A DNA stretch of 32,000 nucleotides from an uncultured Erysipelotrichaceae bacterium (GCA_942492995.1 OW818653.1:1650001-1682000), one strand, 5' to 3'; shown: positions 6,800 to 23,312, numbered from the stretch's first letter. The notes: a model not told the origin generated them from the sequence alone. Numbers and translations are program-made.

Positions 6800-8047
6800 T
6801 TAAAATTCCGCAATACTTTCATGGAATACCCATTCTTTCCATTTCAATTTTTCTTGGTAGTAGACTATCGCTTTTTTATAGAATCGATCACCTTCATAAT
6901 ACACAATTAGTTTATTTAACGTAAACTCATAATTCTCATAATCTCGTTTATCTTTAGTAAGCTGGTATAAATCAAGTAATAGAGCTTCATATTTATGACT
7001 AATATCCTTAGTGTTCTCTAAATGTATGATTTCTATCTGTTTCATAAATATTTCATTGATTAAATATTTAAATGATTCAGAATATAGTTTTTCTGAATCA
7101 TTTATTTTACCTAAATAACTTAAACTCGCAATTTTAATAAACAATCCATTCTCAGTTAATGAGTTATCCTTTTCTATTCTAGATAAGAAATTTAGTGATG
7201 ATTCATATTGTCCGTTTAAGAAATCAAACCAAGCTAGATTATAGAGTATTACTTCTTTTTGGTCGTGATTCTTTGTCTTCTCTATTTCTTTTAGAATACG
7301 TAAATAGCTTTGTTTGGCAATCGCATAGTTTTTCATTTTAGCGTGTATTGTGGCGATATGAATTTGGACATTGAGTAGTCGTGCATGATTACGATCTCGT
7401 ATAAATTGATTTTCAGCTTGTTCACAGAAACGTAATGCCTTTAATAACTTGCCATATAGTGAATATAGAATTCCCGAATGATAATAAATTAATCCAGTAC
7501 TAAGACCATGTTGGCCTAAGGATATAGCCTGTTCAATCGTATTAACTGCGTCGATTAATTTACCTTTACGCATCAAGTTAATCGCGTGATAATCGTAGAA
7601 TAGTTGTAAGTATTTGATGTTTAATTCAGGAATTCTTAAGAGTATTTTATTTAAGAATTTTGTCTCATCTTCATTGAATATAACAGATCCAATATATCGA
7701 ATTACCAAGTATATATCGCTATAAACTGAATATTCAATATACTGTTCAGCTTTTTGAATTTTCTTATATATCATTTTACTTTCTGAGATGTAATCAAACG
7801 CAATAGCTTCATAAAAATCATCAATATCATTTATGAACCTCTCACTAATATACATGATAAGTTCATAATCAATTCCAAGAGATTCAAATATTATCTTAAG
7901 ATTATCATCAGTAATTTCAATTAAATCATTTTCATATTTTGAAATTGTTTGAAAACTAAAATTTGTTAAATCTGACACATTTCGTTGAGTCATATTTTTG
8001 TTTAGTCGAGAGTCCTTTAAAAGTTGTGAGATAATTATGTTTTTCAT
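6800..8047 (-). CDS. XRE-type HTH plus TPR-like repeat transcriptional regulator (RNPP-like, putative peptide-sensing)
   Basis: 415 aa. The N-terminal Cro/C1-type HTH reads LNKNMTQRNVSDLTNFSFQTISKYEND. The rest is helical-repeat-rich with recurring A..Y/L..A..Y TPR-like patterns. The gene is very AT-rich and diverges from a small hydrophobic peptide ORF. Confidence 0.6.
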   Translation of the reverse strand: MKNIIISQLLKDSRLNKNMTQRNVSDLTNFSFQTISKYENDLIEITDDNLKIIFESLGIDYELIMYISERFINDIDDFYEAIAFDYISESKMIYKKIQKAEQYIEYSVYSDIYLVIRYIGSVIFNEDETKFLNKILLRIPELNIKYLQLFYDYHAINLMRKGKLIDAVNTIEQAISLGQHGLSTGLIYYHSGILYSLYGKLLKALRFCEQAENQFIRDRNHARLLNVQIHIATIHAKMKNYAIAKQSYLRILKEIEKTKNHDQKEVILYNLAWFDFLNGQYESSLNFLSRIEKDNSLTENGLFIKIASLSYLGKINDSEKLYSESFKYLINEIFMKQIEIIHLENTKDISHKYEALLLDLYQLTKDKRDYENYEFTLNKLIVYYEGDRFYKKAIVYYQEKLKWKEWVFHESIAEF

Positions 8048-8073
8048 TTTGTTTGTCGCTTCAATATACCTAA

Positions 8074-8101
8074 ATTATAGTGCTTAAGCAAGAAAAATCA
8101 A
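8074..8101 (-). promoter_or_regulatory. Putative sigma-A promoter of the HTH-TPR regulator
   Basis: On the minus strand, TTGATT, a 16-nt spacer and TATAAT lie about 27 nt upstream of the ATG. Confidence 0.35.
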
Positions 8102-8107
8102 AGAAAG

Positions 8108-8141
8108 AATAGAATTAGTGGTATGTATTCTATTATATAAT
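8108..8141 (+). promoter_or_regulatory. Dyad element AATAGAAT-N11-ATTCTATT abutting a TATAAT -10 box; candidate regulator box and promoter for the small peptide ORF
   Basis: Perfect 8-bp inverted repeat at 8108-8115 and 8127-8134. TATAAT lies at 8136-8141, with no good -35 hexamer, which suggests an activator-dependent layout. Confidence 0.35.
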
Positions 8142-8161
8142 TTAAGTAAGAGGAGAACTAT

Positions 8162-8227
8162 ATGGAACTAAATGCAATTATTGAGATTATTTTAGTAGCA
8201 TTAGAATCAGTTATACCAAAGATTTAA
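8162..8227 (+). CDS. 21-aa small hydrophobic peptide MELNAIIEIILVALESVIPKI (candidate signalling pro-peptide)
   Basis: An AGGAGA RBS at 8151-8156 lies 5 nt before ATG 8162, and a TATAAT lies about 20 nt upstream. The ORF is divergent from the HTH-TPR regulator. It is too short for the six-frame track. Confidence 0.4.
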   Translation: MELNAIIEIILVALESVIPKI

Positions 8228-8384
8228 TTTGTTTTTTCATTAAACAGTACAATCTCAAATCATAGTTTGTCTTTAGCAATTGTAGATATAATTAATTCTT
8301 TGTGACAATTCTTTTTGGTGATTGTGGTTGTTGAATTCAGGATGGCTTAATTTTATAAATTATTAACATAAGGCAATATTATAA

Positions 8385-8999
8385 ATGATCAATAAATTAA
8401 AGTTTATAAAGAATAATTGTAAAGAAATGTTAATCGTAATTTTATTTTTGATTAATATGTTTTACGTTGGTTATCAAAGCTATGAACTTAATAATGCATC
8501 ATTATTGCAAGTTGAATTATTGCAAGAAGTCGAGAATGAAAAGAAAACGTTAGATTCTACTAAACAAGATATATTTAGTAGAATTATAGAAGATTTGGAA
8601 GTAATAGAACGTGATAATAATTTGGATTATATATTTAAATTATTTGGTTTAGATATTCAAGTTCATTTGGAAGAAGAACTTCCTAATAATATAGTACTTG
8701 CAGTAAATAAAATGACTAGAGAATTTGGTTTTTATTATTTGAGTGATACAATAATTTTTCCATATCAAACATATTACATTGATACTAGAGGGAACCTTGG
8801 TAGTTTAAAAGATTATAACAATTATCTTGATAAAACAAATGGTGTATATATTTATAAATACACTGGTAATGATGAAGATTTCAATTTTCAATGGGCATAT
8901 GCTTATAATAAATCAACCGGTTTCTTAGACAAGTATGAATTTAAATGGTATCCCGCTGATTCAATGGAAATAAGTTTTCTTTCGAATATTGAGGGATAG
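8385..8999 (+). CDS. Membrane-anchored protein of unknown function (paralog A)
   Basis: 204 aa with one N-terminal TM helix (MLIVILFLINMFYVGY). It shares the block LFG..(V/I).V.L...LP......G.YY..D with the next ORF. The start codon is uncertain because the RBS is weak. Confidence 0.5.
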   Translation: MINKLKFIKNNCKEMLIVILFLINMFYVGYQSYELNNASLLQVELLQEVENEKKTLDSTKQDIFSRIIEDLEVIERDNNLDYIFKLFGLDIQVHLEEELPNNIVLAVNKMTREFGFYYLSDTIIFPYQTYYIDTRGNLGSLKDYNNYLDKTNGVYIYKYTGNDEDFNFQWAYAYNKSTGFLDKYEFKWYPADSMEISFLSNIEG

Positions 9000-9001
9000 T
9001 T

Positions 9002-9535
9002 ATGAGAAATAGCAAATTTTTAGTACTCTTTTCGATTTTATTGATTATGATTCTTATTCAAAATATATATTTTAACAAGAAATTTGATCAAATAGATTCG
9101 TCTTTGAATAAAGTAATGTTTGAAATTAGTAACCAAAAACAACAACTTATAGAAGATTACTATTTTAATAGAAAAATGTTTCTTAATGTTCTTAATTATA
9201 ATAAAAACGAAGATTATAAAGTGAATTTATTTGGAAGAACTGTTTATGTGAGACTCAGTAGCAGATTACCTCGCGATATGTACTTAGTTGAGAACTCACT
9301 TAATAATAGTGTTGGAATATATTACATTGATGATAATTCTAGTATCTCATTAAGAAGTTATACATTAGAAATGGTTTCAAATAAATTAACTTTTATTAAA
9401 TCTAAAGATTTCGTTATTAGCACAGAGTTTACATCGAAAGACATAGTTAATATTAGGGATATAAAAAGAATTGAATTAGAAAAGCGGAGAATTGAATTTT
9501 CATTAAGTTTAGAACCAAACAACATAGTTGATTAA
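9002..9535 (+). CDS. Membrane-anchored protein of unknown function (paralog B)
   Basis: 177 aa with an N-terminal TM helix (FLVLFSILLIMILI). It begins 2 nt after paralog A ends and shares the NLFGRTVYVRLSSRLP...VGIYYIDD block with A. Confidence 0.5.
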   Translation: MRNSKFLVLFSILLIMILIQNIYFNKKFDQIDSSLNKVMFEISNQKQQLIEDYYFNRKMFLNVLNYNKNEDYKVNLFGRTVYVRLSSRLPRDMYLVENSLNNSVGIYYIDDNSSISLRSYTLEMVSNKLTFIKSKDFVISTEFTSKDIVNIRDIKRIELEKRRIEFSLSLEPNNIVD

Positions 9536-16974: not shown

Positions 16975-17902
16975 TCGTTATTTGTATAACAATCTTTCCT
17001 TTTGAATGACCTTTTTGGAACGTATTAAATACACTAATACCATCACTGAATGGGACAACACGTTCGATAACAGGTTTGATTTTCTTTTGACTAACAAGGT
17101 GAATGATTGCTTCTAAATCATTTCGATTTGATTTAGAATTCAATATCTTAAACGTATTATTACCCAGGGAATATATTGGGCATAGTATAAGATTCTTAAT
17201 AAACTGTTTGATTGGTCCACCGACCATGACATAAGTACCATTTGGTTTTAATAATCGTTTATACAGAGATAATGGATATGCTCCATTTACCGCAATAATT
17301 AAATCAAATGTTTCTTTGAGTTGGTGTAAATCATCTTTCTTATAATTAATAACACTGTCCGCCCCAAGATCACGAGCCATATCGACATTATGCGTACTAC
17401 AAACCGCAGTCACATGAGCTTTGAAATTTTTCGCAAGTTGGATTACAAATGTTCCTACTCCGCCACTAGCCCCAACAATTAATACTTTATCGTTTTCTTT
17501 AACAGGTTTAAATAAAGTAAGAGCTTGAAGCGCAGTAGTCGATGCGACAGGACAACTTGACGCATCAATGAGTGATAATGTGTCTGGAACTTTTACTAGA
17601 TTACTTGCTTGAGCAACCGCATATTCCGCTAATCCACCAAATCCTGCATTGGATGTATCTACGACAACACGTTCCCCAATCGAAATTGAATGGACAGCTT
17701 GACCCAACTCTTCCACAATTCCAGCAATCGAATTGCCTAATATACCTGATTTTGGTAATCCAGAATTTAATTGAACTAAACGATAATCCCCCGCATTAAG
17801 AGATGTCGCCACAACCTTAATCAACACCTCATTTGGTAAAGGGATTGGTTTACTTACATCACTAAACATAAATGACTTATCTTTGTAGATTAGAGCTTTC
17901 AT
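16955..17902 (-). CDS. NAD(P)H-dependent medium-chain dehydrogenase/quinone oxidoreductase family protein
   Basis: 315 aa with the Rossmann motif VLIVGASGGVGTFVIQLAK and an N-terminal GroES-like domain (EVLIKVVATSLNAGD). Confidence 0.8.
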   Translation of the reverse strand: MKALIYKDKSFMFSDVSKPIPLPNEVLIKVVATSLNAGDYRLVQLNSGLPKSGILGNSIAGIVEELGQAVHSISIGERVVVDTSNAGFGGLAEYAVAQASNLVKVPDTLSLIDASSCPVASTTALQALTLFKPVKENDKVLIVGASGGVGTFVIQLAKNFKAHVTAVCSTHNVDMARDLGADSVINYKKDDLHQLKETFDLIIAVNGAYPLSLYKRLLKPNGTYVMVGGPIKQFIKNLILCPIYSLGNNTFKILNSKSNRNDLEAIIHLVSQKKIKPVIERVVPFSDGISVFNTFQKGHSKGKIVIQITNEINGK

Positions 17903-18129
17903 TTTGAATCATCCTTAACTTCATAATTGAATACTTTCGTGAGAGGGACATTAAACGCATCCGCTATGCGAAAAGCTAGTTCTAAAGTAGGTGAGTACTT
18001 ACCTGCTTCAATAGCCATAATAGTTTGACGTGAAACACCTGCCTTTTCCGCCAAGTCTTGTTGGGTCATTTCATTCGCAAAGAATCGAAGGGTACGTACT
18101 TGATTGGTGATGTTAAATTTTTTAGCCAT
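17899..18129 (-). CDS. Small XRE-family HTH transcriptional regulator
   Basis: MAKKFNITNQVRTLRFFANEMTQQDLAEKAGVSRQTIMAIEAGKYSPTLELAFRIA is a Cro/C1 HTH. An AAGGTG RBS lies 6 nt before ATG 18129. The stop overlaps the next ATG (ATGA). Confidence 0.8.
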   Translation of the reverse strand: MAKKFNITNQVRTLRFFANEMTQQDLAEKAGVSRQTIMAIEAGKYSPTLELAFRIADAFNVPLTKVFNYEVKDDSK

Positions 18130-18622
18130 TGCGTACACCTTTGAAATAGAAGAATAGATTGCTTAAGCCTTCACTTAAACTACCAACAAAGAAGGATAAG
18201 TACATGATGTTTAATACAACTACAATATTTCCACCAAACGCTAAATAGACAAGTGAACTAACAAACCCAACACTTACCACAATATATCCTACACGCATAG
18301 ATTTAAGCTCAATTAACTTATCCATTTCATCTTCAATCATCTCTAATTCAAGCTTACGATTAATCTCTTTATCATCTTTACTCTGTTCTTTTATCGCTAA
18401 GTTAATTGAGAGATAGATATGAAACACAATATGTAATACAATAGTAACGATAACCCCTACAACAATGTAAGTAACCATCTGTTTAGCCCAGTATTGTAGG
18501 TCATTTTCGATGATATTTCCAGCCTTATAATGGTTATAAATGCTTAAACAATAACTCACTAGAATGATTAAACTAGCAACTAAACTAGTGATGGTTTTCT
18601 TTGTCTGATATGTCATAAACAC
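18122..18622 (-). CDS. Integral membrane protein, unknown function (first gene of the XRE operon)
   Basis: 166 aa with about 4 TM helices and a charged central loop (KEQSKDDKEINRKLELEMIEDEMDK). An AAGGAGG RBS is present. Confidence 0.5.
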   Translation of the reverse strand: MFMTYQTKKTITSLVASLIILVSYCLSIYNHYKAGNIIENDLQYWAKQMVTYIVVGVIVTIVLHIVFHIYLSINLAIKEQSKDDKEINRKLELEMIEDEMDKLIELKSMRVGYIVVSVGFVSSLVYLAFGGNIVVVLNIMYLSFFVGSLSEGLSNLFFYFKGVRNG

Positions 18623-18809
18623 GTCCTCCTTACCTATTTGTTTATAAGTATATACTTAATGTAAAGTATATTAGACATAATGTCAATATATTTAATCATA
18701 AAATGTGTTAAAAACGTTTTTTAACTGATCAAAAAGTAAGTAAAAAGAGTGATTTTACCTCAAAAAACGTCGATTTTACCTCATTTTTAGGGTAAAAACG
18801 GCTCAAAAT

Positions 18810-18838
18810 TTGCCAGATAAGATAACTTGTGCTAAAAT
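18810..18838 (+). promoter_or_regulatory. Sigma-A promoter of the 3D-domain lipoprotein gene
   Basis: TTGCCA, a 17-nt spacer, then TAAAAT with an extended TGn (TGCTAAAAT). Confidence 0.55.
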
Positions 18839-18869
18839 CACGAAGTCATCAGATAAAGGAGACAAACGA

Positions 18870-19712
18870 TTGATAAAAACTAAAAAAGCATTGATTGCGG
18901 GAGTTATCCTACTTCTAGCAGCGTGCACACAAACAACGGAAAGTACTCATGTTGTGCTACAAAAAGCAGATCAGAACACAATATTGAGCGCCGCACTTGT
19001 TTCACCTTTTACGTTTGAAGAAAGCGTTGAGACGACTTATGATACGACACCTATTAAAACGGTACTCAATCCAATGGACAACACACGAACAGGTTATCCT
19101 TGGCTAATATCAAAAGTGAGTGAAGGTAGCGTAGGCTATACGGAAACTCGTTATCGTTCAACCTATGATAGTGAGGGGAATCTACTATCAAAAGAATACA
19201 TACCTGATTCGGAAACCTATACAGAAGGTAAACCAACCATTTACCAATATGGGGCTAAGGTTGCGAAGGGGGCATATTTCTACGCACGTTCAATCACTAA
19301 ATATGGATTTGATTGTACAGGCTGTGGAATCGGTTTAGATGGAAATGCAGGAACGTCTGCAGGTATACGTTTAAATGCGACGAGCATACGCCAATCCAAT
19401 GGAACATGGTTAGATGGAATTACCTATGATGGATACTATGTTGTGGCAGCGGATAAAGCTTACCCAAATTGTACAATTCTAGAGATTTCAAATCATACGT
19501 TCAGTGGTATGGGATTAACATCCGGGGTTCCGTTCTTAGCACTTGCTGTGGATCGTGGTGGCGCTATTACCACAAACAAATTAGATTTATTTGTCGGTAG
19601 TGAGAAGAATATTAACGTTGTGACAAATAAACGTACAGCAGATTCTAAAGTAACCGTCGTTGGATTCCTTAAGTGGACGAAAAATGGATTAGGTGAAAGA
19701 ATTTGTAAGTAG
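18870..19712 (+). CDS. Lipoprotein with a C-terminal 3D (DPBB, MltA/YabE/YuiC-like) domain; putative cell-wall-active protein
   Basis: An AAGGAG RBS precedes TTG 18870; the track's 18810 start overlaps the promoter. Lipobox LLLAAC. 3D-domain pattern: KYGFDCTGCG...GTSAG, VVAADKAYPNCT, ALAVDRGGAI, KLDLFVG. It occupies the yabE position upstream of rnmV-ksgA. Confidence 0.6.
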   Translation: MIKTKKALIAGVILLLAACTQTTESTHVVLQKADQNTILSAALVSPFTFEESVETTYDTTPIKTVLNPMDNTRTGYPWLISKVSEGSVGYTETRYRSTYDSEGNLLSKEYIPDSETYTEGKPTIYQYGAKVAKGAYFYARSITKYGFDCTGCGIGLDGNAGTSAGIRLNATSIRQSNGTWLDGITYDGYYVVAADKAYPNCTILEISNHTFSGMGLTSGVPFLALAVDRGGAITTNKLDLFVGSEKNINVVTNKRTADSKVTVVGFLKWTKNGLGERICK

Positions 19713-19731
19713 GTCATTATATATAATGACT

Positions 19732-19767
19732 AGACGCGTTGGCTACATGCCGACGCGTTTTATTATA
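19732..19767 (+). terminator. Possible terminator hairpin after the lipoprotein gene
   Basis: AGACGCGT-(13 nt)-ACGCGTTT can form an 8-bp GC-rich stem followed by a T/A-rich tail. The long loop lowers my confidence. Confidence 0.4.
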
Positions 19768-19958
19768 CCCCGAGAAGCCCCGAGAAGCCCCGAGAAGCCC
19801 CGAGAAGCCCCGAGAAGTCCCGAGAAGTCCCGAGAAGTCCCGAGAAGTCCCGAGAAGTCCCGAGAAGTCCCGAGAAGTCCCGAGAAGTCCCGAGAAGTCC
19901 CGAGAAGTCCCGAGAAGTCCCGAGAAGTCCCGAGAAGTCCCGAGAAGTCCCGAGAAGT
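19768..19958. repeat. Perfect 10-bp tandem repeat array, CCCGAGAAGY, about 19 copies
   Basis: Read directly from the sequence. There are 4 units of CGAGAAGCCC (from 19771), then 14 units of CGAGAAGTCC (from 19811), then a terminal partial unit CGAGAAGT. Apart from the single C/T block switch there are no other substitutions. Confidence 0.97.
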
Positions 19959-19968
19959 GTCTAAATTA

Positions 19969-19977
19969 TGATATAAT
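19969..19977 (+). promoter_or_regulatory. Extended -10 promoter (TGaTATAAT) of the AlbA_2-domain gene
   Basis: TGATATAAT lies 21 nt upstream of ATG 19999, and a GAGGG RBS lies at 19987-19991. The -35 position falls inside the repeat array and has no TTGACA-like hexamer. Confidence 0.5.
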
Positions 19978-19998
19978 TTTAACTAAGAGGGAAAATAT

Positions 19999-21354
19999 AT
20001 GGGTAATAAACATTTAGAAGGTGAGTCAAACTTAATTGAATATAAGCTAACTTTGCCTGAAGATAATACAAAGTGGTTAAAGAGTGTCGTATCTTTTAGT
20101 AATACTTCTGGGGGGAGATTGATCGTAGGTATTGAAGACTCAACATTGAAGGTAGTTGGAATTCAAGATGAAAGATCTAAAATAGAACAAAGAATAGTTG
20201 AATCAATACATAGCAATATTGAACCTAGACCAATAATCGATATAAGTTTTGAAAATTATGAAGATAAAGACATAGTAATAATTCAAGTAGCCAAAGGAAA
20301 TGAAACTCCATATTATATAAAAAAGGAGGGCATAGAGGAAGGGTGCTATGTTAGGTTTGGATCAACTGATCAAAAAGCAACAAATAGTCAAAGACTTGAA
20401 CTAAGACTTAATAGAAATAATGAAACATTTACAAGCGAAATCTATAATAAGAATGCTAAATTAGTTAAAAGAGATGATGCTGAGATATCAAAATTCCTTA
20501 GTTTTATAAATACTCAAATTAAAAGTGGCAAGAGTTTGAATGAAAATAAACTTTTGGAATGGAAGTTGCTTAGAAATGAATTTGATAATATTTATGCGAC
20601 TAACGGACTGATGTTATTAACAGAAAATCCATTCAGTCAAAGTTATATAAAAATAGGTGTGTTCAAAGGGGTAACAAAGTCTGAAATAAAGAAAGACTAT
20701 GTTATAAATGGCTCGATAATTGCACAATATTTTGAAGCGATGAAAGTTTTACTTAACGAATTGGAAGATGGTTATTCAATTGCTACAATTCGAGAAATGA
20801 AATATAAAGTTCCAGAAATAGCCATTAGAGAAATTTTAGCTAATGCAATAATTCATAGAAGTTATATAGATGAACAAACTATTAGAATTAGCATTTTTGA
20901 TAATAGAATAGAAATATATTCGCCAGGAACATTATTTGATGGTCTGCAAATAGAAGATGCTATAAATGGTCGTTCCAAACTTAGGAATCCTAATATAAGT
21001 GAAGTTTTCTATCATTTAGGTTTGATAGAGAAATGGGGATCAGGAATTCAAAGAGCGAATGAAGCATTGAGTAAAGAAAATTTTCTTCCTTTAATCTTCG
21101 AAGTCAATAATATACACGGGGTTAATGTTATTATTAAATTTGAAAAAATTGTAAATGAAGTTAATGAAAGTATGATAAATGTCGAAAACTATTTAGACTT
21201 TAAATCTACATTCACACGTAAAGATCTGGAGAGTGATTTAAATATCACTCAAGATCAAGCTAGATACTTGGTTGAAAAGTGGGTAAATAAAGGCAAAATA
21301 GTAAAAATAGGTGGAAGTTCAAAATCTAAGTATAGTGTAAACAAAATAAATTAA
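19999..21354 (+). CDS. AlbA_2 (Schlafen-like) domain protein with a C-terminal HATPase_c_4/RecG-C-like ATP-binding domain and wHTH
   Basis: N-terminus ESNLIEYKLTLPEDN...SFSNTSGGRLIVGIED...ETPYYIKK...YVRFGSTD is an AlbA_2-type domain. REILANAIIHRSY...IEIYSPGTL...RNPNISEVFYHLGLIEKWGSGIQR is the HATPase_c_4-type block. The tail looks like a wHTH. The gene is very AT-rich. Confidence 0.75.
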   Translation: MGNKHLEGESNLIEYKLTLPEDNTKWLKSVVSFSNTSGGRLIVGIEDSTLKVVGIQDERSKIEQRIVESIHSNIEPRPIIDISFENYEDKDIVIIQVAKGNETPYYIKKEGIEEGCYVRFGSTDQKATNSQRLELRLNRNNETFTSEIYNKNAKLVKRDDAEISKFLSFINTQIKSGKSLNENKLLEWKLLRNEFDNIYATNGLMLLTENPFSQSYIKIGVFKGVTKSEIKKDYVINGSIIAQYFEAMKVLLNELEDGYSIATIREMKYKVPEIAIREILANAIIHRSYIDEQTIRISIFDNRIEIYSPGTLFDGLQIEDAINGRSKLRNPNISEVFYHLGLIEKWGSGIQRANEALSKENFLPLIFEVNNIHGVNVIIKFEKIVNEVNESMINVENYLDFKSTFTRKDLESDLNITQDQARYLVEKWVNKGKIVKIGGSSKSKYSVNKIN

Positions 21355-21424
21355 TGTATTAAATATGAAATTCGAATTCATTAAACATTTTAGAAAATCT
21401 TTAGTTATAATTGTCAAATAATAG

Positions 21425-21463
21425 AAATAACGCCTTGAACATAAATCAATGCGTTATTTTTTT
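21425..21463 (+). terminator. Rho-independent terminator after the AlbA_2 gene
   Basis: AAATAACGC-(17 nt)-GCGTTATTT followed by TTTT. Confidence 0.5.
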
Positions 21464-21581
21464 ATGATTTAACATATCGTTAAACTATAATAAGAAACAT
21501 ATTATTAATTCGTTATTATAGTATAGATTGATAAAATATAATAAGAAGATATAATAAAGTTAATAATGCGAGGAACTAGGT

Positions 21582-22727
21582 ATGATAAATCGAGCAGGGC
21601 AAACCATAAAGAATCTATCAGGGGCATCTACATATACTTCTTATCAACCTAATCCTTTGATGGATGATTTAGATATCCATATGGATAATGAGATGATAGA
21701 GCTATTAGTAAAGGCAAATAGGGAGATAGCGGTATTAGAACGTATCTCAAGTTACATACCTAATATTGATTTATTCATCACAATGTATTTACGTAAAGAA
21801 GCGCTTATGTCTTCACAAATAGAAGGAACACAGGCAACACTTGAAGATATTTTAGATCCAAGTATTGTCGAAAATTCTAATTTAGAAATAGTAGATGTTG
21901 TTAATGTGGTGAAGGCAACACATTTTTCGATGAATCGATTAAATGAATTACCTTTATGTAATCGACTCATAAAAGAAACGCATTCTATCCTTATGGATGG
22001 GATAAGAGGTGGGGATAAGAGTCCTGGAGAGTTTCGACTTTCGCAGAATTGGTTAGGTGGATTTGGGAGTACGTTAAAGACTGCACAATATATTCCACCT
22101 AATGTACAAGATATGTTAAATGGAATGTCAGATTTAGAGAAATATATGAATACAGAAAGTAGTGTGGATCCATTAATCAGAGCTGGATTAATACATTACC
22201 AATTTGAAACAATTCATCCTTTTTTAGATGGTAATGGAAGAATCGGAAGATTGTTAATTCAACTATACTTAACGCAAACTAAAACGTTAGTATTACCTTC
22301 CTTAAGTATTTCGTATTATTTGAAGAGATATCGCTCGGAATACTATGATCGATTAACTGATGTACGACGTACAGGGCAGTATGAACAATGGCTTAAATTC
22401 TTTTTAAGAGCGGTGTATGAATCTGCGGAAAGTGCAAATTTAACGATTAAACAAATGATGTTTCTGAACGAAATTAATACTGAAGTTATTCTATCATTTG
22501 GACGTATCTCATATACTGGATTAAAGTTACTTAGATATATAGAAGAGAATCCTATTGTTGAAGTTAGAAAGACTTCTATAGATTTAGGTTTAACATTTGC
22601 GACTGTATCTAAATGTGTTGATCTATTTGTTAAACACGGAATTCTAATTCAATATAAAGGCCATAAAAGAAATCGATTGTTTGCCTATGATGCGTATTTA
22701 CAATTATTAAGAGAAGGAACGGAGTAG
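21582..22727 (+). CDS. Fic-family protein (class II, N-terminal inhibitory helix, C-terminal wHTH); putative AMP/NMP-transferase
   Basis: Fic active-site motif HPFLDGNGRIGR. N-terminal (S/T)xxxE(G/N) inhibitory motif in MSSQIEGT. The C-terminal segment LGLTFATVSKCVDLFVKHGIL is wHTH-like. Confidence 0.85.
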   Translation: MINRAGQTIKNLSGASTYTSYQPNPLMDDLDIHMDNEMIELLVKANREIAVLERISSYIPNIDLFITMYLRKEALMSSQIEGTQATLEDILDPSIVENSNLEIVDVVNVVKATHFSMNRLNELPLCNRLIKETHSILMDGIRGGDKSPGEFRLSQNWLGGFGSTLKTAQYIPPNVQDMLNGMSDLEKYMNTESSVDPLIRAGLIHYQFETIHPFLDGNGRIGRLLIQLYLTQTKTLVLPSLSISYYLKRYRSEYYDRLTDVRRTGQYEQWLKFFLRAVYESAESANLTIKQMMFLNEINTEVILSFGRISYTGLKLLRYIEENPIVEVRKTSIDLGLTFATVSKCVDLFVKHGILIQYKGHKRNRLFAYDAYLQLLREGTE

Positions 22728-22772
22728 TTTCAATAATAGGCATATTAAGACTTGAATGATATAATAACAACG

Positions 22773-23312
22773 ATGAAAATCAAAGAAACAATTGTCGTAG
22801 AAGGTTATCATGATAAACAAGCTTTATTGAAGCTTGTGGATGCGAATATCCTTGTGACTCAAGGCTCATATTTAAGTGAGAAAACATTAAAACTGATTGA
22901 GAAAGCACATAGTACATCAGGAGTAATCGTTTTTACTGATCCAGATACTCCAGGTAAAAAGATACGCAATACCATACAAACACGAATACCGGATGTTAAG
23001 CATGCCCATATTATGCAGAAAGATGCGAAGGCAAAACATAAAGTTGGGGTAGAACATGCCTCGGCTGAAATATTACTTGCGGCATTGAATAACGTAATGA
23101 CAGTATCGAATGATGTGTCGAACTTAAGCTTAAATGATTTAATTGATTTAGGACTAAGTGGAAATCCAGATAGCCAAGAATTACGTAAGAAGTGTGCAGA
23201 GAAGTTATACATTGCGGAGGGGAATGCGAAATCATTCTTGAAACAATGTCAGTTTAAATTAGTAACGAAGGAAGATCTTCTAGAAATCGTAAATACATGC
23301 AAAAACCAATAA
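22773..23312 (+). CDS. rnmV: Ribonuclease M5 (RnmV), Toprim domain
   Basis: MKIKETIVVEGYHDKQAL...VIVFTDPDTPGKKIR is the Toprim E / DxD pattern. The gene lies directly upstream of rsmA, as in Bacillus. The start is ambiguous between TTG 22752 and ATG 22773. Confidence 0.8.
   Translation: MKIKETIVVEGYHDKQALLKLVDANILVTQGSYLSEKTLKLIEKAHSTSGVIVFTDPDTPGKKIRNTIQTRIPDVKHAHIMQKDAKAKHKVGVEHASAEILLAALNNVMTVSNDVSNLSLNDLIDLGLSGNPDSQELRKKCAEKLYIAEGNAKSFLKQCQFKLVTKEDLLEIVNTCKNQ

What the first reader, a model, noticed from the sequence alone, without database searches (positions are those of the whole stretch)
19999..22727. Two-gene AlbA_2/Schlafen-like ATPase plus class II Fic island inserted between yabE-like and rnmV: candidate defence or abortive-infection module
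The conserved yabE-rnmV junction is split by two AT-rich genes. Gene 1 combines an AlbA_2 (Schlafen-type) nucleic-acid-binding domain, a HATPase_c_4 ATP-binding domain and a wHTH. Gene 2 is a Fic enzyme with an intact HPFLDGNGRIGR active site, an intramolecular inhibitory SxxxEG helix and a C-terminal wHTH. Schlafen-like domains and Fic AMPylators are both tied to virus restriction or toxin activity, and single-gene Fic antiphage systems have been reported (SoFic in defence-system catalogues, from memory). The pair is not an operon in the strict sense: a terminator and a 227-bp AT-rich spacer separate the genes, and the spacer contains a 9-bp inverted repeat CTATAATAA...TTATTATAG. Even so, their co-insertion behind a hypervariable-looking repeat array suggests a functionally linked, possibly phase-variable, accessory system.
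Basis: partly seen in the sequence, partly recalled or inferred. Interest (0 to 1): 0.66.

Follow-up and report, generated by a model that had tools for sequence, protein, structure and literature searches.

The report
Two unlinked defence-type genes; Schlafen promoter repeat
The two genes are not a paired system: they are two separate single-gene cassettes, a bacterial Schlafen RNase-ATPase and a SoFic-type Fic enzyme, that come and go independently at a variable chromosomal spot, and the 10-bp repeat array is a conserved, copy-number-variable promoter element of the Schlafen gene alone.

Summary
The sequence facts hold. Gene 1 (19999-21354) has SLFN_AlbA_2, a GHKL ATPase (PF13749) and a wHTH. 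Gene 2 (21582-22727) is a class II Fic with a wHTH. A terminator and a 227-bp spacer separate them.

The interpretation as a co-inserted, linked pair fails.
- Fic sits between yabE and rnmV in several related species without gene 1, and its identity tracks the flanking genes.
- Gene 1 occurs without Fic in a sister species. In same-species contigs an Ltp-like superinfection-exclusion gene replaces it. Elsewhere it is a pseudogene, a remnant or absent.
- 0 of 86 loci with gene-1 relatives hold a Fic. 0 of 62 Fic loci hold a gene-1 relative.

Gene 1 belongs to the commonest prokaryotic Schlafen architecture ("Schlatpase"-HTH), with intact Ex4ExK RNase and GHKL motifs. Gene 2 matches the PADLOC SoFic model over its full length.

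The new result concerns the 10-bp array (19 copies). Every ortholog of gene 1 (48-90% identity) with readable upstream DNA carries a 10-bp-period array of C-N-C-(G/T)AGAT-like units against an extended -10 promoter. Copy number varies. I infer tandem operator sites for the protein's own wHTH; this is untested.

The parts
18810..19712 (+). yabE-like gene (3D domain). It is the conserved left flank of the variable site.
   Evidence: Pfam 3D domain at 5.8e-05, borderline. It lies directly upstream of rnmV in Erysipelothrix and Traorella relatives.
19713..19767 (+). 18-bp palindrome GTCATTATATATAATGAC (19713-19730), then a hairpin ACGCGTTGGC/GCCGACGCGT with a T-run (19734-19767). This is the yabE terminator in genomes that carry the gene-1 cassette, and it marks the cassette's left edge.
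   Evidence: In L008, L092 and L234 the equivalent stem has a different sequence but still pairs. The L176 alignment places the left boundary of the insertion at about 19716.
19769..19958 (+). Tandem array of 19 units of 10 bp: 4 x CCCGAGAAGC, then 15 x CCCGAGAAGT. I infer a promoter-proximal operator-like VNTR of gene 1.
   Evidence: TRF and pattern search. There are 6 copies in same-species contig L001, and other assemblies break or have N gaps inside the array. Homologous period-10 arrays lie upstream of all gene-1 orthologs with readable upstream DNA.
19969..19977 (+). Extended -10 promoter element TGATATAAT of gene 1. The -35 position falls inside the last repeat unit.
   Evidence: Sequence. 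The same TGnTATAAT element follows the array in 10 orthologous lineages.
19999..21354 (+). Gene 1: a prokaryotic Schlafen of the Schlatpase-HTH type. It has a SLFN RNase domain with E9-x4-E14-x-K16, a GHKL ATPase with E278/N282, and a C-terminal wHTH at about 393-447.
   Evidence: Pfam. The motif residues are invariant in 27 orthologs. The AF2 model has pLDDT 86. The fold search finds 3lmm, SLFN13/11/14/5 N-domains and GHKL kinase domains. Literature.
21425..21466 (+). Hairpin plus T-run after gene 1. It is homologous to the yabE terminator of relatives that lack gene 1, and it marks the cassette's right edge at about 21426.
   Evidence: The same sequence follows yabE directly in L176.
21485..21521 (+). 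Inverted repeat CTATAATAA-N19-TTATTATAG. It is a conserved backbone element upstream of Fic or rnmV, and its function is unknown.
   Evidence: It has 13-15-nt perfect arms in the Fic-less L008, L234 and L230.
21528..21555 (+). Best sigma-70-like promoter in the region, TTGATA-16-TATAAT. It is the likely Fic promoter.
   Evidence: 11 of 12 matches. It is conserved in L176 and L233.
21582..22727 (+). Gene 2: a SoFic-family class II Fic protein with H212 in the catalytic motif, E81 as the inhibitory Glu, and a C-terminal wHTH.
   Evidence: Pfam. PADLOC SoFic at 2.5e-107 over residues 17-377. SoFic structures in the PDB at 1.6e-28. Orthologs of 86-96% identity lie at the same locus in relatives without gene 1.
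22752..23312 (+). rnmV (RNase M5), the conserved right flank. The true start is probably ATG 22773, preceded by an extended -10 element (TG 22757-58, TATAAT 22760-65).
   Evidence: NCBIfam TIGR00334 at 1.7e-39. Promoter scan. Similarity to relatives begins at 22773.

Best explanation
The interval is not one system. It is a variable chromosomal spot between yabE and rnmV, near the replication origin of an uncultured Erysipelotrichaceae bacterium. The spot holds independent single-gene cassettes.

Cassette 1 spans about 19716-21426. It contains its own terminator, the 10-bp array, an extended -10 promoter and gene 1. Gene 1 is a prokaryotic Schlafen of the 'Schlatpase-HTH' class.

Inferred mechanism for gene 1, by analogy with characterised relatives:
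- Oligomerisation assembles the Schlafen nuclease.
- The nuclease cleaves tRNA and shuts down translation in infected cells.

The tandem 10-bp units read C-N-C-(G/T)AGAT-W-W, one per helical turn, and run into the -35 position. They are most likely head-to-tail binding sites for the protein's own C-terminal wHTH. This would give cooperative autorepression, or tethering of the protein to its own promoter. Slippage would change the number of sites and so the set-point.

Cassette 2 is a SoFic-family Fic enzyme that has long been resident in this genus. By analogy with SoFic it AMPylates or de-AMPylates a translation factor such as EF-Tu, and it may bind DNA through its wHTH.

The two genes are neighbours by accident of the hotspot, not partners.

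Shown: the gene content, the motifs, the independent presence and absence of each gene, and the conservation and variability of the array. Inferred: all biochemical activities, the defence role, and which protein binds the array.
For: Independence of the two genes:
- no co-occurrence in 148 loci.
- six locus configurations exist among close relatives. These are gene1+Fic, gene1 only, Ltp-like+Fic, Fic only, Fic plus a 5-kb insertion, and empty.
- a gene-1 remnant in L008 and a gene-1 pseudogene in L092.
- Fic identity (86-94%) tracks that of yabE, rnmV and ksgA.
- the clade structure implies that Fic is ancestral and was lost in L008.

Gene 1 class:
-.
- PMC13056530: Ex4(E/D)xK motif; HisKinase and HisKinase-HTH fusions make up 53% of prokaryotic Schlafens.
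- bioRxiv 10.64898/2026.05.29.728809: the Schlatpase supradomain, ATP-driven tetramerisation, catalytic E314/N318.

Fic class: and the papers read.

Array:
- every ortholog of at least 48% identity with readable upstream DNA has a period-10 array, 14 loci in about 10 lineages. None of the roughly 64 relatives at 35% identity or less has one.
- 18 of the 21 period-10 arrays found in 3.27 Mb lie upstream of these genes.
- copy number and unit-variant order differ between samples that encode the same protein, and assemblies break inside the array.
- the first residue of the predicted recognition helix co-varies with unit position 4 (Q or T with G; H or L with T).
Against: - No experiment here shows defence, toxicity, tRNA cleavage or DNA binding.
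- Two HisKinase-type Schlafen fusions were among the constructs chosen for testing in E. coli in PMC13056530, and no HisKinase fusion was among the two systems that gave protection against the phage panel. One of the eight constructs failed synthesis.
- 30% of prokaryotic Schlafen genes are not near any known defence gene.
- The window Fic scores far below NCBI's SoFic equivalog cut-off (145.7 against 550 bits). It is stably inherited next to housekeeping genes, which also fits a regulatory, non-immune role.
- The helix-to-unit covariation rests on about 10 phylogenetically related sequences.
- Array copy numbers come from metagenome assemblies, which can collapse repeats. However, the first unit of L001 differs from the window's, so that difference is real.
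Confidence: 0.7

Rival explanations
1. One reading: gene 1 and Fic form a functionally linked two-gene defence or abortive-infection module. They were co-inserted, and the array makes the pair phase-variable.
For: The two genes are adjacent and on the same strand in the window and in L001. Both families include antiphage members. Both would target translation, through tRNA and EF-Tu, so additive effects are conceivable.
Against: No co-occurrence in 86 plus 62 loci. Each gene occurs alone at this same locus in close relatives. They have separate promoters with a terminator between them. Fic is vertically inherited in the clade, whereas gene 1 is patchy and more AT-rich. The array accompanies gene-1 orthologs that have no Fic neighbour.
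Confidence: 0.04
2. Neither gene is an immune gene. Gene 1 is an ATP-dependent transcription factor that regulates itself, and perhaps other genes, through the array. Fic is a housekeeping regulator of translation or transcription, kept next to the rRNA-maturation genes rnmV and ksgA.
For: Gene 1 has a wHTH and an operator-like array at its own promoter. Sources annotate relatives as 'predicted HTH transcriptional regulator'. No HisKinase-type Schlafen fusion gave protection in E. coli. SoFic is a constitutive deAMPylase and binds its own promoter. Fic is stably inherited across the genus next to rnmV.
Against: The catalytic Ex4ExK RNase motif is invariant in the orthogroup, which is hard to explain for a pure transcription factor. 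Gene 1 shows the presence/absence, pseudogenisation and allele turnover (56-90% identity at one locus) that is typical of defence genes. In same-species contigs it is swapped for an Ltp-type superinfection-exclusion gene. Its orthologs sit beside AbiEii, nSTAND NTPase, HipA and transposases. Fic is dispensable (L008, L230, L234).
Confidence: 0.2
3. The 10-bp array is a neutral or structural minisatellite with no protein-binding role. Examples would be slippage-prone DNA or a G-quadruplex on the template strand. Alternatively it is a classical on/off phase-variation switch.
For: The minus strand is (GGG-N7)n, which is the only canonical G4 motif in the 32-kb window. Within-array identity is 96-100% in several lineages, as expected from ongoing slippage. 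Copy number varies.
Against: An array with the same period, position and strand, and a shared C-N-C-(G/T)AGAT core, persists across orthologs down to 48% identity, although the rest of the upstream DNA is not alignable. That argues for selection. Units in L094, L095 and L096 lack CCC runs, so G4 potential is not the conserved feature. The last unit always abuts the -10 element, at 15 or about 25 nt. Gain or loss of whole 10-bp units therefore cannot change promoter spacing or helical phase, which excludes the usual spacer-length on/off mechanism (inference).
Confidence: 0.15

Closest known systems
Prokaryotic Schlafen nucleases of the HisKinase-HTH / 'Schlatpase'-HTH architecture (PMC13056530; bioRxiv 10.64898/2026.05.29.728809)
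   Same: Gene 1 has the same three domains: SLFN_AlbA_2 (PF04326), a GHKL ATPase (PF13749) and a C-terminal HTH. It has an intact Ex4ExK motif (E9, E14, K16) and the GHKL Glu/Asn pair (E278, N282). Its orthologs lie near other defence or mobile genes.
   Different: No standalone Schlatpase-HTH protein has a demonstrated function. The characterised relatives carry other sensor domains (Ig-like, DUF262, Argonaute, Csx15). The conserved promoter-proximal 10-bp tandem array is not mentioned in the papers I read on this family.
SoFic (Shewanella oneidensis Fic; the single-gene antiphage system in PADLOC and DefenseFinder)
   Same: The match covers the full length, including the dimerisation-helix region, Fic_N with the inhibitory SxxxE(G/N) motif, the Fic core HPFxDGNGRxGR and the C-terminal wHTH. 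PADLOC gives 357 bits, and SoFic crystal structures match at 1.6e-28.
   Different: The sequence is strongly diverged from S. oneidensis SoFic. It scores far below the NCBIfam equivalog cut-off (145.7 against 550 bits). There is no room for an AS1-like small ORF downstream, because only 24-45 bp separate it from rnmV. The dimer-interface residues L28 and K32 are not conserved in the alignment. It is inherited vertically with backbone genes in this clade.
Ltp-type superinfection exclusion proteins (PF07553; known from memory from the Streptococcus thermophilus phage TP-J34 Ltp)
   Same: In same-species contigs (L233, L235, L236) a 242-aa protein occupies the position of gene 1. It has three Lipoprotein_Ltp repeats (4e-44) and PHROG 'superinfection exclusion' hits.
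   Different: It is not in the window. It has an N-terminal zinc ribbon and a transmembrane helix instead of a lipoprotein signal. It matters only as evidence that the site exchanges defence-type cargo.
Tandem direct-repeat operators read head-to-tail by winged-helix proteins (OmpR/PhoB 10-11-bp repeats, plasmid iterons) and promoter VNTR contingency loci such as the Haemophilus hmw 7-bp repeats. All of these are recalled from memory.
   Same: The repeats are direct, with a period of one helical turn, and lie at or overlap a promoter. A wHTH protein is encoded immediately downstream. Copy number varies between strains.
   Different: There are up to 19 near-identical units, far more than typical operators have. 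Binding is untested. Unlike classical phase variation, the geometry leaves promoter spacing unchanged.

Membership tests
Prokaryotic Schlafen (pSlfn) nuclease | SLFN_AlbA_2 (PF04326) domain | tested here: met
   Pfam gives 1.2e-23 over residues 9-127, above the gathering score. The AF2 model matches the SLFN13, SLFN11, SLFN14 and SLFN5 N-domains.
Prokaryotic Schlafen (pSlfn) nuclease | Catalytic Ex4(E/D)xK motif | tested here: met
   E9-SNLI-E14-Y-K16. E14 is invariant, and E9 and K16 are at least 90% conserved, in 27 orthologs. The motif definition comes from PMC13056530.
Prokaryotic Schlafen (pSlfn) nuclease | tRNA cleavage and phage defence phenotype | not testable with these tools
   This needs biochemistry and phage challenge. 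HisKinase-type fusions were among the constructs chosen in PMC13056530, and none was among the two systems that gave protection in E. coli.
Schlatpase supradomain (SLFN + GHKL ATPase) | PF13749 GHKL domain following the SLFN domain, with the catalytic Glu and the Mg-binding Asn | tested here: met
   HATPase_c_4 at 4e-21. E278 and N282 are invariant and correspond to RzAgo E314 and N318. The fold search matches histidine-kinase CA and PDK domains.
Schlatpase supradomain (SLFN + GHKL ATPase) | ATP-dependent oligomerisation that assembles the nuclease | not testable with these tools
   This was shown only for the Runella SLFN-pAgo.
SoFic antiphage system | Fic core motif HxFx(D/E)GNGRxxR | tested here: met
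   HPFLDGNGRIGR at residues 212-223. Pfam Fic at 8.1e-21.
SoFic antiphage system | Class II intramolecular inhibitory helix (S/T)xxxE(G/N), N-terminal to the core | tested here: met
   S77-SQI-E81-G82 aligns with SoFic SSEIEN. Pfam Fic_N at 1.6e-19.
SoFic antiphage system | Full-length match to the curated SoFic models | tested here: inconclusive
   The PADLOC SoFic model matches at 2.5e-107 over residues 17-377, covering 355 of 361 profile positions. The NCBIfam equivalog NF046030 gives only 145.7 bits against a cut-off of 550.
SoFic antiphage system | N-terminal dimerisation helix and C-terminal wHTH | tested here: inconclusive
   The alignment to 9tch and 3eqx spans residues 20-377, including the wHTH. 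The interface residues L28 and K32 align to N36 and E40. L31 and L50 align to I39 and Y58. These equivalences are my own reading together.
SoFic antiphage system | Protection against phage; AMPylation of a target such as EF-Tu | not testable with these tools
   This is known only for other family members.
Two-gene operon or co-inherited defence system | Conserved adjacency of the two genes across genomes | tested here: not met
   0 of 86 and 0 of 62 loci. Each gene occurs alone at the same locus.
Two-gene operon or co-inherited defence system | Co-transcription | tested here: not met
   A hairpin with a T-run lies at 21425-21466, and a strong separate promoter at 21528-21555. These are sequence predictions only.
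Classical promoter phase variation by repeat slippage | A change in repeat number alters the -35/-10 spacing or the reading frame | tested here: not met
   The array lies upstream of the -10 element, with the last unit at a fixed distance. The unit is one helical turn long. Copy number does vary.

The most novel reading that the evidence does not exclude
An orthogroup of the most abundant but functionally uncharacterised class of bacterial Schlafens (Schlatpase-HTH) is governed by a conserved, hypervariable array of 10-bp direct repeats at its own promoter. The protein's wHTH would polymerise head-to-tail along one face of this DNA, with ATP- and GHKL-driven oligomerisation. The array would then act both as an autoregulatory rheostat, whose copy number sets the dose of a toxic tRNase, and as a tether that stores the nuclease in an inactive, DNA-bound form until infection releases it. 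This would parallel the inactive filaments of Schlafen-Argonaute.
Probability: 0.3. Interest if true: 0.7.

Novelty: new variant of a known kind. Interest (0 to 1): 0.5.

Why it matters
The proposed two-gene system does not exist, so it should not be added to the lists of candidate defence systems. Each gene is an ordinary member of a known family.

Three things are still worth keeping.

1. The array gives a concrete handle on Schlatpase-HTH proteins. These make up more than half of all prokaryotic Schlafens, and the role of their HTH is unknown. A conserved, strain-variable array of one-helical-turn repeats abuts the promoter of one orthogroup. It predicts the DNA target of the HTH and gives a simple experiment.

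2. The yabE-rnmV gap near the origin is a small cargo-exchange hotspot in an uncultured Erysipelotrichaceae genus. It carries three different defence-type single genes, which is useful for defence-gene discovery in Mollicutes-related Firmicutes.

3. This is a worked example of adjacency in one genome wrongly suggesting a system.

Tried and rejected
- Exact-protein look-ups of the window's rnmV and gene 1 found nothing. A look-up with the neighbouring 76-aa HTH protein worked.
- Rfam found nothing in the whole window at gathering thresholds. It also found nothing for the roughly 140-nt conserved intergenic element of clade-B relatives.
- IMG/VR scans for gene-1 relatives, with a single sequence and with the alignment, found none. 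A scan for the repeat itself also found none.
- NCBIfam has no model for gene 1. PADLOC (2023) gives only weak domain-level hits for gene 1: PDC-S50 and the GHKL part of an Argonaute-associated protein.
- I considered the inverted repeat as a Fic autoregulatory operator, by analogy with SoFic binding its own promoter. I rejected this as unsupported. The repeat is better preserved in relatives without Fic, and a 9-bp inverted repeat is common by chance in this AT-rich spacer.
- I considered G-quadruplex formation as the conserved property of the array. I rejected it because three lineages have units without C-runs.
- The two 92-aa ORFs that read through the array (19693-19971 and 19739-20017) are artefacts of the repeat. 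They have no Pfam hit, and a 10-bp unit read in three frames produces them.
Full report
**Observation.** The ORFs are exactly as described: gene 1 at 19999-21354 (451 aa) and gene 2 at 21582-22727 (381 aa). Pfam finds SLFN_AlbA_2 (residues 9-127), HATPase_c_4 (294-368) and a weak wHTH-type hit (393-436) in gene 1, and Fic_N plus Fic in gene 2. The Fic motif HPFLDGNGRIGR lies at H212-R223. The inhibitory S77-x3-E81-G82 motif lies N-terminal to the core, so this is a class II Fic. The alignment to SoFic crystal structures runs from residue 20 to 377 and so includes the C-terminal wHTH. The 227-bp spacer, the hairpin with T-run at 21425-21466, and the 9-bp inverted repeat (21485-21493 and 21513-21521) are all present. 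The 19-unit 10-bp array at 19769-19958 is also present. A 9-bp inverted repeat occurs in 22% of shuffles of this AT-rich spacer, so it is not remarkable on its own.

**Host and context.** The backbone is an uncultured Erysipelotrichaceae bacterium. KsgA is 89% identical to a MAG contig (L008) and 48% identical to Erysipelothrix. The window is origin-proximal: rsmG, noc/parB, soj, spo0J, mnmE, tatD, then yabE-like, rnmV, ksgA, ispE, glmU and prs. In Erysipelothrix, Traorella and other family-level relatives the yabE-like gene is followed by rnmV after about 130-150 bp. The junction is therefore really interrupted here.

**The two genes are not a unit.** I fetched the same locus from close relatives through exact-protein look-ups and a genome scan. 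There are two subclades. One holds the window and L176, at about 92% nucleotide identity. The other holds L008, L172, L168 and L169. The configurations found are:
- yabE-array-gene1-Fic-rnmV: the window and L001, same species.
- yabE-array-gene1-rnmV, with no Fic: L230, a sister species, with gene 1 at 90% amino-acid identity.
- yabE-[242-aa protein]-Fic-rnmV: L233, L235 and L236, 95-97% nucleotide identity to the window and so the same species.
- yabE-Fic-rnmV: L176/L177 and L172-175.
- yabE-Fic-[SBP, response regulator, kinase, esterase]-rnmV: L168-171.
- yabE-array-gene1 pseudogene-rnmV: L092, 56% identity with premature stops.
- yabE, 1.7 repeat units, a 39-codon remnant of the gene-1 3' end, then rnmV with the Fic ORF precisely missing: L008.
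- An empty site: L234.

Fic identity to the window (94% in L176, 88% in L172, 86% in L168) tracks that of yabE, rnmV and ksgA in the same contigs. Fic is therefore an old, vertically inherited resident of this genus that was lost in some lineages. Gene 1 is patchy, more AT-rich (GC 0.26-0.30) and decays repeatedly.

Away from this locus there is also no linkage. None of 86 loci around gene-1 relatives (1.22 Mb, 30-61% identity) contains any Fic; I checked by tblastn and by motif, with a positive control. None of 62 loci around Fic relatives (0.69 Mb, including 52 IMG/VR contigs) contains a gene-1 relative.

**Cassette boundaries.** Alignment with L176 shows that window 19716-21426 replaces about 20 bp. 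The hairpin after gene 1 is the yabE terminator of L176. The cassette brings its own terminator (19734-19767), the array, an extended -10 promoter (TGATATAAT, 19969-19977) and gene 1. The Fic cassette runs from about 21549 to about 22730. In Fic-less relatives the promoter region that carries the inverted repeat abuts rnmV directly. There the repeat has perfect arms of 13-15 nt, so it is a backbone element and not a Fic operator.

**What the genes are.** Gene 1 has the architecture that two 2026 papers describe as the commonest prokaryotic Schlafen type. One calls it HisKinase or HisKinase-HTH fusions, 34% plus 19% of 5,930 proteins (PMC13056530). The other calls it the 'Schlatpase' supradomain, usually with a C-terminal HTH, 58.6% of 103,533 proteins (bioRxiv 10.64898/2026.05.29.728809).
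- The catalytic Ex4(E/D)xK motif is present as E9-x4-E14-x-K16.
- The GHKL Glu and Asn are present as E278 and N282.
- E14, E278 and N282 are invariant in 27 orthologs, and E9 and K16 are at least 90% conserved.
- An AlphaFold model (pLDDT 86, pTM 0.74) matches 3lmm, which has the same architecture, then the SLFN13, SLFN11, SLFN14 and SLFN5 nuclease domains, then histidine-kinase and PDK ATP-binding domains.
- The model ends in a canonical winged helix (strand, helix, helix 418-430, two-strand wing).

Characterised relatives cleave tRNA after sensing phage. [quoted passage not shown] No HisKinase-type fusion gave protection in the E. coli tests, so a defence role for this class is plausible but not shown. 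Orthologs of gene 1 in Acholeplasma lie next to AbiEii, an nSTAND NTPase, transposases and HipA.

Gene 2 matches the PADLOC SoFic model over its full length (2.5e-107) and SoFic structures (1.6e-28). It falls well below the NCBIfam equivalog cut-off. SoFic-family proteins are toxic AMPylases that act as single-gene antiphage systems. S. oneidensis SoFic AMPylates and de-AMPylates EF-Tu and binds its own promoter. There is no room here for an AS1-like antitoxin ORF (for AS1; for the 24-45-bp gap).

The 242-aa protein that replaces gene 1 in same-species contigs has a zinc ribbon, a transmembrane helix and three Lipoprotein_Ltp repeats (4e-44). It also has PHROG superinfection-exclusion hits. 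The site therefore exchanges defence-type cargo.

**The repeat array.** This is the unexpected part. I ran TRF on the 500 nt upstream of every gene-1 relative I had fetched.
- All orthologs of at least 48% identity with usable upstream DNA carry a 10-bp-period tandem array of 4.5 to 19 copies. The array ends just before an extended -10 element (TGnTATAAT) and the start codon.
- None of the roughly 64 relatives at 35% identity or less has one. Two further contigs with only 60-80 nt of upstream DNA begin inside such an array.
- In register, the units read C-N-C-(G/T)AGAT-W-W on the coding strand. Examples: CCCGAGAAGT (window), CCCGAGATTT (Alteracholeplasma palmae J233), CCCGAGATAA, CACGAGATAA, CGCGAGATAA, CCCTAGATTT and CTCACGATTT.
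- The first C of the last unit lies 15 nt (five lineages) or 23-26 nt (five lineages) before the -10 hexamer. The array therefore covers the -35 region.
- In 3.27 Mb of fetched DNA there are 21 period-10 arrays with at least 4 copies, and 18 of them are these.

Copy number is unstable.
- There are 19 units in the window and 6 in same-species contig L001. The first unit of L001 differs from the window's, so this is not merely assembly collapse.
- One Acholeplasma contig has an extra double unit.
- For one exact protein (P0014), three contigs span the array, with 6, 7 and 7 units and a different order of unit variants. Seven contigs end inside the array.
- L230 has an N gap in the array, and L231, L232 and L237 end in it.

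The array accompanies gene 1 whether or not Fic is present. Its trace survives in L008 at the deletion breakpoint.

**Mechanism.** Whole 10-bp units are added or lost upstream of a fixed last unit. Promoter spacing and helical phase therefore never change, which excludes the usual on/off slippage switch (inference). G-quadruplex potential exists in the window: (GGG-N7)n on the minus strand is the only such motif in 32 kb. It is not conserved in three lineages. The shared sequence core, the one-turn period and the wHTH encoded immediately downstream point to tandem head-to-tail binding sites. The protein's own wHTH is the obvious candidate, as OmpR/PhoB-type winged helices read 10-11-bp direct repeats (from memory). 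The first residue of the predicted recognition helix is Q or T where units read CCCGAG, and H or L where they read CCCTAG. This is suggestive, but it rests on few, related sequences. I therefore propose cooperative autoregulation whose set-point depends on unit number. A more speculative version has the array tethering inactive protein. None of this is tested.

**Verdict.** The sequence description is confirmed. The interpretation as a linked, co-inserted module is refuted. What remains is two ordinary members of known single-gene defence-type families in a small cargo hotspot, plus a previously undescribed (as far as the papers I could search show) conserved promoter VNTR specific to one Schlatpase-HTH orthogroup. 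I rate the interest as moderate.

Noticed in passing
window 22737-22775: rnmV probably starts at ATG 22773, not at the TTG at 22752. An extended -10 promoter (TG 22757-58, TATAAT 22760-65) ends only 7 nt before that ATG, and there is no Shine-Dalgarno sequence. This suggests a leaderless rnmV-ksgA transcript. The sequence TGATATAATAACAACGATG is conserved in all genus-level relatives.
   Followed up: partly
window 6800-9535: This is the lowest-GC stretch of the window (0.24-0.28). It holds an HTH_3-TPR regulator on the minus strand (6800-8047), which looks like an RRNPP-type regulator, followed by two ORFs without any Pfam family (8385-8999 and 9002-9535). The region between tatD and the zinc-ADH gene differs between relatives, so it is a second variable region.
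   Followed up: no
L172 7755-7900; L008 4190-4330; L092 6600-6760; L168 and L169 equivalent: A conserved intergenic element of about 140 nt (GGGATATTTCTTGGACAG...GGGGGAAGTTGTTTGGATC...) ends in a terminator-like hairpin. It lies between yabE (or the gene-1 remnant) and the Fic/rnmV promoter in one subclade. It is absent from the window and has no Rfam match.
   Followed up: partly
L233 3500-4228 (reverse-complement coordinates); also L235, L236: Same-species contigs carry a 242-aa protein in place of gene 1. It has a zinc ribbon, a transmembrane helix and three Ltp repeats, and resembles superinfection-exclusion proteins. It is flanked on both sides by copies of the roughly 55-bp yabE terminator region, which suggests insertion or exchange by recombination at that repeat.
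   Followed up: partly
L001 versus window 17673-21760: In the same-species contig L001 the DNA upstream of the array is 96.8% identical to the window, but the DNA downstream (gene 1 and the start of Fic) is 99.5% identical. This step change at the array is consistent with recent recombinational exchange of the cassette within the species.
   Followed up: no
L168-L171, between Fic and rnmV (about 5 kb): A block is inserted between Fic and rnmV in one lineage. It encodes a solute-binding protein, a response regulator, a histidine kinase and an esterase. The hotspot therefore also accepts cargo that is not defence-related.
   Followed up: no
L169 16383-16902; L230 1-301: A RelB/DUF6290-ParE toxin-antitoxin pair lies between ispE and glmU in some relatives but not in the window.
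   Followed up: no
window 18657-18701 and 18742-18783: Two short 21-bp tandem duplications (2 copies each) lie in the divergent promoter region between the 166-aa membrane protein gene and yabE.
   Followed up: no
window 19693-19971 and 19739-20017: Two 92-aa ORFs read through the repeat array as a 10-residue peptide repeat (PEKSREVPRS). They are almost certainly artefacts of the array, but a gene caller could annotate them.
   Followed up: yes
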